DNA from: Naegleria gruberi
Lineage: Eukaryota
Assembly (NCBI GenBank): GCA_000004985.1
Contig: GG739529.1
DNA: 1,151 nt
Direction: 5' to 3' (one strand)
Part shown: positions 1 to 1,151 of the stretch, piece by piece
How the letters are laid out: every line of letters begins with the position of its first letter
How positions within the stretch are numbered: position 1 is the first letter of the stretch
Notes under the pieces: generated by a model
Seen by the model: only the letters and a program-made list of their open reading frames with translations
Told to the model about the DNA's origin: nothing
Database searches by the model: none
Made by a program: the position numbers and the translations under genes

Positions 1-653
1 GAAACTTTCAAGACAAACTCAACTGAACCACATTCGTTCTTCAATAAAAAAACGTTTCCTGGATATGCAAATGTAGCCCAGAAAGTTGAGATTGGGGCTG
101 AATATCCGTGAGAAGTTTGATTTCCTTCCTCGTCTACCCTAAATACATTATATTTCCTAGATGTATCATTTCTAATGCTAATATCCACAAGTTCATGTCC
201 ATCAAATCTTGACCTAATTAATTTCCAATCCTCCTCACGAGCTTTTGTCATCTTGCAAATTGTTACGTGTTTTGATTGGTCCTCAATTATTTCTTCCTCT
301 ATCTCCTCCACTTGATCACCCACTACAATTTCTTCATCATCTTCATCAACCATTTTCCCATCCCTCTCCTCATCATACATAAATGTTCCAGGAACAACCT
401 CAAAATAATCAACAGTCTCTTCTGTCGGAACAAAAATCGATACAACCTCCCTCTTCTCATCATTCATTCTTCTCATTATGAAAGGATGAGTAGCACCAGC
501 TTGCTGACAACATTTCCCGCCAGAATTTAAAACTGTAAACGGTTGTTCATTTCCCTCATAATCAATCCAAATCATTTGAATGGGCTCGGAAAGAGTGTTA
601 TGGAAAATGATTGGACATTTGTGATCCCATCTCTTGGCACATAGTTTTTTCAT
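1..653 (-). CDS. Protein with two tandem VHL beta-domain-like repeats and an acidic linker. The 5' end is complete (ATG 653-651) and the 3' end is cut by the window edge.
   Basis: Manual reverse-complement translation gives an open frame from ATG 653-651 to position 3, 217 codons, with 2 nt left over. An in-frame upstream stop TGA lies at 674-672, and six A's precede the ATG (AAAAAAATG). Translation: MKKLCAKRWDHKCPIIFHNTLSEPIQMIWIDYEGNEQPFTVLNSGGKCCQQAGATHPFIMRRMNDEKREVVSIFVPTEETVDYFEVVPGTFMYDEERDGKMVDEDDEEIVVGDQVEEIEEEIIEDQSKHVTICKMTKAREEDWKLIRSRFDGHELVDISIRNDTSRKYNVFRVDEEGNQTSHGYSAPISTFWATFAYPGNVFLLKNECGSVEFVLKV... Residues ~14-76 align without gaps to human pVHL residues ~73-135 (recalled from memory): IIFxN...W.IDYEGNEQPF..L..GG.....H.F.....IFVP versus VIFCN...WLNFDGEPQPY..L.PGTG...H.W...ELFVP. 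Residues ~156-217 repeat the N..(F/W)x(I/V)D.EGN.Q core (DEEGNQT versus DYEGNEQ). The sense strand is purine-rich, and the codon usage (AGA, CCA, GGA) fits a coding region. The high confidence refers to it being coding and the lower to the VHL-like call. Confidence 0.72.
   Translation of the reverse strand, partial: MKKLCAKRWDHKCPIIFHNTLSEPIQMIWIDYEGNEQPFTVLNSGGKCCQQAGATHPFIMRRMNDEKREVVSIFVPTEETVDYFEVVPGTFMYDEERDGKMVDEDDEEIVVGDQVEEIEEEIIEDQSKHVTICKMTKAREEDWKLIRSRFDGHELVDISIRNDTSRKYNVFRVDEEGNQTSHGYSAPISTFWATFAYPGNVFLLKNECGSVEFVLKV
331..348. repeat. Perfect 9-bp tandem duplication (tcttcatca x2), in frame within the acidic linker.
   Basis: 331-339 and 340-348 are both tcttcatca. On the coding (minus) strand this is GATGAAGATGATGAAGAA, encoding D103-E108 (DEDDEE). 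Confidence 0.9.
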
Positions 654-670
654 TTTTTTAATTAAAACGT

Positions 671-683
671 CTCAAAAAAAATG
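671..683 (-). promoter_or_regulatory. U-rich acceptor-like site (CAUUUUUUUUGAG|A) 17 nt upstream of the start codon. It is a candidate cis- or trans-splice (SL) acceptor.
   Basis: The minus strand reads ca-tttttttt-gag with AG at 672-671. The exon would begin at 670 (ACGTTTTAATTAAAAAAATG). The G at -3 is non-optimal compared with the nematode UUUUCAG consensus. Confidence 0.3.
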
Positions 684-701
684 TCGTACCACCCAGTAAC
701 T

Positions 702-728
702 ACACTGTTGACCCTGAGACCACAGTGT
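702..728. other. Hairpin or inverted repeat ACACTGT-N13-ACAGTGT.
   Basis: Positions 702-708 (acactgt) are the exact reverse complement of 722-728 (acagtgt), separated by a 13-nt loop (tgaccctgagacc). Confidence 0.6.
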
Positions 729-737
729 GTTGCCGCA

Positions 738-749
738 ATACTTACGTCG
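738..749 (-). promoter_or_regulatory. Consensus 5' splice-donor-like sequence CGAC|GTAAGTAT on the minus strand.
   Basis: The minus strand at 749-738 reads cgac gtaagtat. The intron side matches GTAAGT(A/T) perfectly, and the exon side (-1 C) is weaker. It lies 75 nt upstream of the acceptor-like AG at 672-671. Confidence 0.3.
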
Positions 750-862
750 GGTTAAGTCACCGTACCCTATACTACCCGGGGTTCCAGCATAGGGTGTTCA
801 AGCCAAGTATTTGTGTCCACAGAGTTACAAGAAATGAACAAAGCAATCCCAACAAGAAAGAA

Positions 863-868
863 TTTATT
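863..868 (-). terminator. Candidate polyadenylation signal AATAAA on the minus strand.
   Basis: The + strand tttatt at 863-868 is AATAAA on the minus strand. It lies about 186 nt downstream of the minus-strand stop at 1054-1056 and about 210 nt upstream of ATG 653. Confidence 0.25.
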
Positions 869-895
869 ATTTAATATTCGTAATATCATCAAGAC

Positions 896-910
896 GAACC
901 CGTCGGGTTC
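896..910. promoter_or_regulatory. Perfect 15-bp palindrome GAACCCGTCGGGTTC. It is a candidate binding site for a dimeric factor.
   Basis: g896..c910 pair perfectly around the central t903. It contains the second copy of the 9-mer CGTCGGGTT (901-909), also found at 745-753. Confidence 0.5.
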
Positions 911-1053
911 ATACGATTAATAAACGTTTAAATTTTTTTTCTAGATTTGATTGAGAAATTGATTTGGTTTCGGAGCATTAAATAATATTCGCCTCTACAT
1001 TTGTTGGGTTCAGAAAAAGTTGAAAGTTTGTTGTTCGAAATCAAGTGATGTTG

Positions 1054-1151
1054 TTATTTCTCAATTGTTGAATTGAGTTTGAGTTTGACAATTTCCATCT
1101 CTGATTTGTGAACTCGCCTTACTTCCTCTTTCATTTCCTTATATTCTTCTG
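1054..1151 (-). CDS. Possible 3'-terminal coding segment of a separate upstream minus-strand gene. It has a K/E-rich, coiled-coil-like tail, and its 5' part lies outside the window.
   Basis: The minus-strand frame entering at 1149 reads EEYKEMKEEVRRVHKSEMEIVKLKLNSTIEK and then a TAA stop at 1056-1054. That is 31 codons with no stop in AT-rich DNA. The sense strand is purine-rich, and a minus-strand AATAAA lies about 186 nt downstream, at 868-863. The ORF is short and could be chance. Confidence 0.3.
   Translation of the reverse strand, partial: EEYKEMKEEVRRVHKSEMEIVKLKLNSTIEK

What the first reader, a model, noticed from the sequence alone, without database searches (positions are those of the whole stretch)
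1..653. Minus-strand gene with tandem VHL beta-domain-like repeats, missed by the ORF track
The ORF track lists only an antisense ORF. The real open frame is on the minus strand, running from ATG 653-651 through position 1 and beyond. Residues 14-76 show the I-I-F-x-N ... W-I-D-Y-E-G-N-E-Q-P-F ... L-x-S-G-G ... H-P-F ... I-F-V-P pattern of the pVHL beta-sandwich. The alignment to human pVHL is ungapped over about 30 residues around W88-W117. A second, more divergent copy at residues ~156-217 shares the D-x-E-G-N-x-Q core. No Elongin-C BC-box (S/T/P-L-x-x-x-C-x-x-x-V/L/I) is visible in the window. A double-beta-domain protein with no evident alpha domain is an unusual architecture, either for a substrate-recognition subunit or for a VHL-like decoy. 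The rest of the protein lies to the left of the window.
Basis: partly seen in the sequence, partly recalled or inferred. Interest (0 to 1): 0.62.

Follow-up and report, generated by a model that had tools for sequence, protein, structure and literature searches.

The report
Calpain protease with two VHL-like domains
The minus strand encodes the start of a protist protein with two copies of the target-binding fold of the VHL tumour suppressor. In all five full-length relatives this start is joined to a calpain-type protease, not to a ubiquitin-ligase adaptor; the combination is in sequence databases but I found no paper describing it.

Summary

Residues about 151-217 are a second, much more divergent copy. 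Pfam does not detect it. Profile-profile comparison gives 82-98.7% probability, against at most 19.5% for shuffled sequences.

The interpretation needs correcting. No nematode link was found. The named relatives are hypothetical proteins of Naegleria fowleri, N. lovaniensis and N. gruberi, and two more sit on metagenome contigs with eukaryote-type genes or introns. All five continue straight from the second VHL copy into a complete calpain catalytic domain. None has an alpha domain or BC-box.

The window therefore most likely holds the N-terminal targeting or regulatory region of a non-classical calpain, not a ligase receptor or a decoy. The hydroxyproline pocket is only partly kept in copy 1 and is lost in copy 2. 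A published catalogue of calpain partner domains does not list VHL. I rate this a new, divergent member of a family known only from database annotation, of moderate interest.

The parts
1..653 (-). Partial coding sequence, codons 1-217, of a predicted VHL-beta/VHL-beta/calpain protein. It runs off the left edge of the window.
   Evidence: Open frame. It is 60% identical and colinear with the homolog on L001. Codon-position identities are 0.72/0.81/0.51.
651..653 (-). Start codon ATG, preceded by an A-rich context (aaaaaaATG)
   Evidence: First ATG after the in-frame TGA at 674-672. L001 starts at the same aligned position, and the Naegleria proteins within a few residues.
408..632 (-). VHL beta domain copy 1 (aa 8-82). 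Positions matching pVHL W88/Y98/S111/H115/W117 are W29/F39/A52/H56/F58.
246..371 (-). Acidic linker predicted to be disordered (aa 95-136, rich in D and E); its length varies between relatives
   Evidence: pLDDT is below 50 for aa 99-131 and 133-136. This region holds the gaps and length differences in the alignments.
3..203 (-). VHL beta domain copy 2 (aa 151-217), strongly diverged. The pocket positions are R172/H182/A196/N200/F202.
   Evidence: No Pfam hit. hhalign against the VHL-repeat alignment gives 82% alone, 94.7% with L001 and 98.7% with Naegleria, while shuffles reach at most 19.5%. It aligns to copy 2 of N. fowleri, which itself passes Pfam VHL at 25.5 bits. Model pLDDT is 79-91, with the same six-strand pattern as copy 1.
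654..1053 (.). Intergenic region upstream of the gene (presumed promoter and 5' UTR); no RNA gene found
   Evidence: No tRNA. No Rfam match at E up to 1. Folding z-scores are -0.5 and -0.8.
1054..1149 (-). C-terminal end of an upstream gene on the same strand (...EEYKEMKEEVRRVHKSEMEIVKLKLNSTIEK, stop at 1056-1054)
   Evidence: Read from the minus-strand sequence. ORF 1054-1134 is in the ORF list. No Pfam hit.

Best explanation
The window holds the first 217 residues of a non-classical calpain from a protist related to Naegleria or with similar genes.

The layout is VHL beta copy 1 (aa 8-82), an acidic disordered linker (aa 95-136) and VHL beta copy 2 (aa 151-217). By homology, a connecting segment of about 70 residues and a complete calpain catalytic core follow beyond the left edge of the window.

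Shown here:
- the open frame and its start codon;
- the VHL beta identity of copy 1;
- the remote VHL beta homology of copy 2;
- the absence of a BC-box;
- the VHL-VHL-calpain layout of all five full-length relatives.

Inferred:
- that the window gene itself continues into the protease;
- that the beta domains act as the targeting module. On this reading they bind a short peptide stretch of a substrate or partner and bring it to the protease, as pVHL's beta domain brings HIF-alpha to a ubiquitin ligase.

In this protein copy 1 keeps the Trp and His of the pVHL pocket. It has Ala where pVHL has the Ser that contacts the hydroxyl group, so strict hydroxyproline dependence is doubtful. Copy 2 has lost the pocket and may serve only as a scaffold or regulator.
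For: - Frame and start.
- Coding constraint against L001.
- Copy 2: hhalign gives 82-98.7% against at most 19.5% for shuffles. The matching N. fowleri domain passes Pfam VHL.
- Architecture: P0019, P0096, P0097, L001 and L002 all carry VHL plus a full Peptidase_C2 domain at 143-188 bits. The window is colinear with L001 at 60% identity up to its last residue.
- No BC-box in any member.
- Modular use of the fold: VHL beta repeats also occur next to TIR, SEFIR, SAM and MORN domains. One bacterial protein, P0025, carries an HExxH motif next to two VHL repeats. This fits a general binding module attached to effector domains.
Against: - The calpain part is not in the window. Its presence rests on five relatives, the closest only 60% identical.
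- Copy 2 fails Pfam and scores only 9.8 bits against the VHL-repeat HMM.
- The predicted fold of copy 2 depends on an alignment that already contained VHL repeats.
- No ligand, substrate or activity is known for any family member.
- The pocket positions are only partly conserved. Some conserved aromatics are core-packing residues rather than ligand contacts (PMC3688787).
- The closest relative, L001, carries a frameshift. This could be an assembly error or decay of that gene.
Confidence: 0.75

Rival explanations
1. Same architecture, different role. The two VHL beta domains do not select substrates. Instead they regulate the protease, for example by autoinhibition, dimerisation or localisation.
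For: Copy 2 of the window and of L001 has lost the pocket residues (R/H/A/N-or-H/F). A long acidic linker separates the domains. In classical calpains the accessory domains mostly regulate activity (general knowledge of the calpain family).
Against: The only studied function of this fold is peptide recognition. Copy 2 in Naegleria and L002 keeps W, Y, S and H of the pVHL pocket. That is hard to explain for a purely structural role. The same positions are also kept in bacterial repeats, so they may be partly structural.
Confidence: 0.25
2. This is a stand-alone protein of two VHL beta domains that acts as a cullin-ligase substrate receptor or as a VHL-like decoy without an alpha domain.
For: No protease sequence lies inside the window. 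No BC-box is present, which would fit a decoy. Human VHL-like protein, which lacks the alpha domain, is a precedent (my own knowledge, not checked here).
Against: All five full-length relatives continue without a break into a calpain core. The window ends exactly where L001 continues. No relative with two beta domains and nothing else was found close to this sequence.
Confidence: 0.07
3. The locus is a decaying or non-functional copy of a VHL-calpain gene.
For: Copy 2 is far more diverged than in Naegleria and L002 (9.8 bits against 42-58). Copy 1 has Ala at the Ser111 position. The closest relative has a frameshift.
Against: The frame is intact over 217 codons in AT-rich DNA (P about 2e-8). 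Codon-position identities of 0.72/0.81/0.51 indicate purifying selection. The copy-2 changes are shared with L001, so they are a lineage feature rather than random decay.
Confidence: 0.05

Closest known systems
Naegleria hypothetical 'calpain catalytic domain-containing' proteins: N. fowleri XP_044567457.1 / KAF0982744.1 (UniRef100_A0A6A5C8B3), with orthologs in N. lovaniensis and N. gruberi
   Same: The order of parts matches: VHL beta, linker, VHL beta, then (in them) the calpain core. The N-terminus aligns. Neither has a BC-box or alpha domain.
   Different: Identity is only 24-30%. The window has a long acidic linker. The window's copy 2 has lost the W/Y/S/H pocket positions that Naegleria copy 2 keeps. 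The Naegleria proteins are uncharacterised.
Unnamed homolog on ENA metagenome contig ERZ929261 k127_286575 (L001; protein P0001)
   Same: It is the closest relative, 60% identical and colinear over all 217 residues. It has the same acidic linker and the same degenerate copy 2. It continues into a full calpain core ending in WWNDR.
   Different: It has a frameshift at about nt 774 and a 47-nt intron in the protease part. It has Thr where the window has Ala52. Its neighbouring genes differ.
Human pVHL beta domain (for example PDB 1LM8, 1VCB, 4AJY)
   Different: There is no alpha domain, BC-box or helix H4. Y98 becomes F, S111 becomes A and W117 becomes F in copy 1, and the pocket is absent in copy 2. 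The domain is duplicated in tandem and, in relatives, joined to a protease rather than to Elongin C and Cul2.
Non-classical calpains that consist of the catalytic core plus non-canonical accessory domains (catalogued in PMC3563603)
   Same: Relatives have a full Peptidase_C2 domain with motifs that look like the Cys, His and Asn catalytic sites, read by eye. They end a few residues after it, with no C2L or PEF domains.
   Different: VHL is not among the 24 partner domains listed there, although N. gruberi was surveyed. The catalytic core of the window gene itself is unseen.
Bacterial and unassigned proteins with tandem VHL beta repeats (P0002-P0018, P0025 and others)
   Same: They share the repeat signature (F-x-N, W-x-D-Y-x-G, T-H-P-W/F). 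Copy 1 of the window scores 79 bits against their HMM.
   Different: Their contexts differ: secreted proteins with two or three repeats, proteins of about 2000 aa with 8-11 repeats, and fusions to TIR, SEFIR, SAM, MORN or an HExxH domain. None has a calpain.

Membership tests
VHL beta domain (Pfam PF01847) | Score at or above the Pfam gathering cut-off (21 bits) | tested here: met
   Copy 1 scores 22 bits in the whole protein and 24 bits as an isolated 100-aa piece, aa 11-64. The margin is small. It is backed by 79.2 bits against an HMM of 168 VHL-type repeats.
VHL beta domain (Pfam PF01847) | The second copy (aa 151-217) also recognised as a VHL beta domain | tested here: inconclusive
   No Pfam hit. 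hhalign gives 82% alone, 94.7% with L001 and 98.7% with Naegleria, against at most 19.5% for shuffles. The orthologous N. fowleri domain passes Pfam at 25.5 bits. Remote homology is well supported, but not at family-threshold level.
VHL beta domain (Pfam PF01847) | pVHL-type beta-sandwich fold | tested here: met
pVHL-type hydroxyproline reader | Pocket residues W88, Y98, S111, H115 and W117 | tested here: not met
   Copy 1 has W29, F39, A52, H56 and F58, so the hydroxyl-contacting Ser is Ala. Copy 2 has R, H, A, N and F. The roles of these residues are from my own knowledge; the paper read confirms only that Y98 binds the hydroxyproline and cites Min et al. 2002.
pVHL orthologs / Cul2 ligase substrate receptors | Alpha domain with an Elongin C BC-box | tested here: not met
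   The pattern [STP]LxxxCxxx[VLI] is absent from the window protein and from all five full-length relatives. The relatives pass directly into a calpain core.
Calpain (Peptidase C2) | Catalytic core present | not testable with these tools
   It would lie beyond the left edge of the window. The window's own contig was not found in the JGI metagenome or viral collections. In relatives it is met: Peptidase_C2 scores 143-188 bits in five of five.
Calpain (Peptidase C2) | Catalytic Cys, His and Asn | not testable with these tools
   For the window gene this is unseen. Relatives carry G(D/N)C(W/F), HGYS and RNTW motifs, read by eye from the alignment. They were not mapped onto a solved calpain.
Classical calpains | C2-like and penta-EF-hand domains after the catalytic core | tested here: not met
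   Relatives end about 5-10 residues after the Peptidase_C2 match and show no other Pfam domain.

The most novel reading that the evidence does not exclude
The VHL beta modules of this calpain family may still read prolyl hydroxylation. The protease would then cut or bind its targets only when they are hydroxylated. That would be an oxygen- or metabolite-gated proteolytic switch in a non-animal eukaryote, parallel to VHL-HIF but independent of it. Copy 2 in Naegleria and L002 keeps W, Y, S and H of the pVHL pocket, so this is more plausible there than for the window protein, whose copy 1 has Ala at the Ser position.
Probability: 0.1. Interest if true: 0.8.

Novelty: new member of a known kind. 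Interest (0 to 1): 0.42.

Why it matters
The VHL beta domain is usually discussed as the hydroxyproline reader of an animal ubiquitin ligase. Here the same fold is duplicated and, in every full-length relative, wired to a calpain protease in amoeboflagellate-type protists.

This shows that the fold is a portable recognition module that predates or lies outside the animal oxygen-sensing pathway. It also adds a partner domain to the calpain repertoire that the published survey read here does not list.

One relative is in Naegleria fowleri, a human pathogen. If the domains bind defined peptide motifs, that would give a handle on the substrates of an otherwise opaque protease family.

For genome annotation, it is a reminder that frames running off a window are dropped by ORF listers.

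Tried and rejected
- The word-indexed homolog search found nothing with the window protein and only P0001 with a three-sequence profile. The exhaustive HMMER search was needed.
- A direct search of the PDB with the single sequence found nothing. The family profile was needed.
- BLASTP of copy 1 against copy 2 gave no alignment, so the duplication is visible only at profile level.
- Single-sequence AlphaFold gave pLDDT 39 and was discarded.
- The afdb50 fold library was unavailable.
- Two hits to aa 146-211 were judged spurious. P0087 has FG-GAP repeats by Pfam; P0033 looks by eye like a low-complexity repeat protein.
- Nematode origin: nothing supports it. The named relatives are all Naegleria. 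The metagenome relatives carry 34- and 47-nt GTAAGT introns or eukaryote-type neighbouring genes.
- The phage database gave no match, and viral contigs gave no relatives.
- The window's own contig was not found in the JGI metagenomes.
- The slightly GC-richer upstream block and hairpin were checked as a possible RNA gene. There was no tRNA, no Rfam hit and no unusual folding energy, so this was rejected.
- Synteny with N. fowleri is absent.
- N. gruberi DNA is not on record in the contig index.

Full report
**1. The observation**

The minus strand from 653 to 1 translates without a stop for 217 codons. With the window's base composition, about 7.8% of random codons would be stops. The chance of such an open run is therefore about 2e-8.

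An in-frame TGA lies at 674-672, and ATG 653-651 is the first ATG after it.

The ORF lister omits frames that run off the source, as its description states. That is why only an 84-aa antisense ORF at 276-530 appeared. I take that ORF to be a shadow of the real frame, though I did not test it.

**2. First VHL copy**

- Pfam's VHL beta domain (PF01847) matches aa 11-64. It scores 22 bits in the whole protein and 24 bits in the N-terminal 100 residues, against a cut-off of 21. This is marginal on its own.
- An exhaustive HMMER search of 1.84 billion representative proteins gave 93 hits. Nine were scanned with Pfam, and seven of those carry VHL.
- An HMM built from 168 of their repeats scores the window's aa 8-82 at 79.2 bits.
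- A three-sequence family profile searched against the PDB finds only human pVHL below E = 0.01 (E 0.003). The alignment is ungapped from about pVHL residue 64 to 128 and continues, after one short gap, to the F-V-P-S strand at 136-139.
- An AlphaFold model built on 18 sequences has pLDDT 79-92 in this domain.

**3. Second copy**

Residues 124-217 have no Pfam hit and no BLASTP similarity to copy 1. Profile-profile comparison of aa 140-217 with the VHL-repeat alignment gives:

| Query | Probability | E-value |
|---|---|---|
| Window copy 2 alone | 82% | 1e-5 |
| Plus the closest relative (L001) | 94.7% | 6e-8 |
| Plus the Naegleria sequence | 98.7% | 4e-16 |
| 60 shuffled controls | at most 19.5% | - |

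The window segment aligns to the second domain of the N. fowleri protein at 23 bits. That domain passes Pfam VHL by itself at 25.5 bits. The model gives copy 2 the same six-strand pattern as copy 1, at pLDDT 79-91.

So a second, strongly diverged VHL beta domain is well supported. The shared core is D-x-E-G-N; the Q is displaced by one residue relative to copy 1.

**4. What the rest of the protein is**

The closest relative is P0001, at 56% identity. It lies on a 2,688-nt ENA metagenome contig, L001. Reading that contig shows:

- an N-terminal VHL copy that the gene caller missed because of a frameshift near nt 774;
- the P0001 frame;
- a 47-nt GTAAGT...AG intron at 1885-1931;
- a second exon ending in WWNDR.

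The reconstructed 585-aa protein is 60% identical to the window over all 217 residues. It carries Pfam VHL and a full Peptidase_C2 domain at 173 bits.

N. fowleri XP_044567457.1, N. lovaniensis P0096 and N. gruberi P0097 have the same layout. So does a fifth member on metagenome contig JAESGV010003683.1, L002. Its neighbours on the contig are BRCT and F-box-like genes.

None of the six family members, the window protein included, has a BC-box. The five full-length proteins end a few residues after the calpain core, so they are non-classical calpains. Motifs resembling the calpain Cys, His and Asn sites, G(D/N)C(W/F), HGYS and RNTW, are visible in the alignment. I read these by eye and did not map them onto a solved calpain.

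That the window gene continues the same way is an inference, because its own contig could not be found.

**5. Pocket residues**

The table shows the positions that align with the pVHL pocket.

| Domain | W88 | Y98 | S111 | H115 | W117 |
|---|---|---|---|---|---|
| Window copy 1 | W29 | F39 | A52 | H56 | F58 |
| L001 copy 1 | W | F | T | H | F |
| Naegleria copy 1 | W | V or I | S or T | H | F |
| L002 copy 1 | W | Y | T | H | W |
| Naegleria and L002 copy 2 | W | Y | S | H | F |
| L001 copy 2 | R | H | A | H | F |
| Window copy 2 | R | H | A | N | F |

To my knowledge, pVHL's Ser111 and His115 bind the hydroxyl group of hydroxyproline. The paper read cites the source structure (Min et al. 2002) but itself confirms only Y98 as a direct contact. 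The window protein is thus unlikely to read hydroxyproline in the pVHL manner.

Some conserved aromatic residues (F76, W117, F119, F136) are core-packing residues (PMC3688787). Their conservation is therefore not evidence of ligand binding.

**6. Mechanism**

The best-supported reading is that the tandem beta domains are a recognition or regulatory module placed in front of a calpain protease. On this reading they bind an extended peptide segment of a substrate or partner.

The modular use of the fold elsewhere fits this. VHL beta repeats occur next to TIR, SEFIR, SAM and MORN domains, and next to an HExxH motif in the bacterial protein P0025. P0025's Pfam matches to metalloprotease families fall below their cut-offs, so its protease nature is only suggested. 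No member of the calpain family found here has been studied, so the functional step is inferred.

**7. Comparison with what is known**

The architecture is present in public databases as automatic annotation of hypothetical Naegleria proteins. Full-text searches for calpain with VHL and Naegleria, and for CysPc with VHL, found nothing.

The survey of calpain architectures in unicellular eukaryotes included N. gruberi. It lists 24 partner domains without VHL.

The window gene is a new, divergent member of this database-only family. It belongs to a sub-lineage, shared with L001, that has a long acidic linker and a degenerate second copy.

**8. Surroundings**

- The 400-nt region upstream of the start has no tRNA, no Rfam match and no unusual folding energy.
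- At the right edge, the same strand carries the last 31 codons of another gene, with its stop at 1056-1054. It has no Pfam match.
- There is no synteny with N. fowleri, whose gene is intronless and has a divergently oriented neighbour.

Noticed in passing
window 1054-1149, minus strand: This is the C-terminal tail of an upstream gene on the same strand (...EEYKEMKEEVRRVHKSEMEIVKLKLNSTIEK, stop at 1056-1054). It has no Pfam hit. A GTAAG at about 1125-1121 could instead be an intron donor, so the true gene end is uncertain.
   Followed up: partly
window 690-930: The intergenic block is somewhat richer in GC (about 0.42). It has an 8-bp hairpin around 895-913 (core gaacccgtcgggttc at 897-911). 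The motif CGTCGGGTT occurs twice, at about 745 and about 900. No tRNA, no Rfam match, and folding z-scores of -0.5 and -0.8.
   Followed up: yes
window 361-380 and 448-467: A 20-nt direct repeat (90% identical, 87 nt apart) lies inside the coding region. It encodes two similar peptides, MNDEKREV (aa 63-70) and MYDEERDG (aa 92-99), that flank the end of VHL copy 1.
   Followed up: no
L001 about nt 774 and 1885-1931: The closest homolog has one extra base (or two missing) after codon 45, which splits the gene call. This could be an assembly error or a real frameshift. It also has a 47-nt phase-0 GTAAGT...AG intron in the calpain core.
   Followed up: partly
L002 2249-2282: A very short 34-nt GTAAGT...AG intron sits in the calpain core, eight codons upstream of the L001 intron position. 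Both introns carry AATTAACATT close to the 3' splice site, which may be a branch-point signal.
   Followed up: no
L001 2485-2673, minus strand: The convergent neighbour encodes a Pmp3-type small membrane proteolipid (Pfam PF01679, 57 bits).
   Followed up: yes
L002 2835-4904: The neighbouring genes encode BRCT, F-box-like and DUF4336 proteins. This supports a eukaryotic origin for that contig.
   Followed up: yes
P0002-P0009 (about 1,700-2,050 aa): These very large proteins have 6-11 tandem VHL beta repeats at the N-terminus. In P0002 and P0003, the two whose sequences were read, a long unrelated C-terminal region ends in hydrophobic stretches that look like membrane segments. Their source and function are unknown.
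   Followed up: no
P0025, P0091, P0011, P0014, P0036: VHL beta repeats are fused to other domains here: an HExxH motif with sub-threshold metalloprotease matches (P0025), TIR, SAM plus TIR, SEFIR plus TIR, and MORN plus SH3. The fold appears to be a widely reused module outside the ubiquitin system.
   Followed up: partly
P0096 (N. lovaniensis) and L002: The motif around the active-site Cys reads GNCW instead of the usual GDCW. The Cys itself is kept.
   Followed up: no
P0094 (N. fowleri KAF0982718.1, 418 aa): A second N. fowleri database entry lacks VHL copy 1 and the last part of the calpain core. It is otherwise identical to P0019, so it is probably a truncated gene model or an assembly duplicate.
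   Followed up: no
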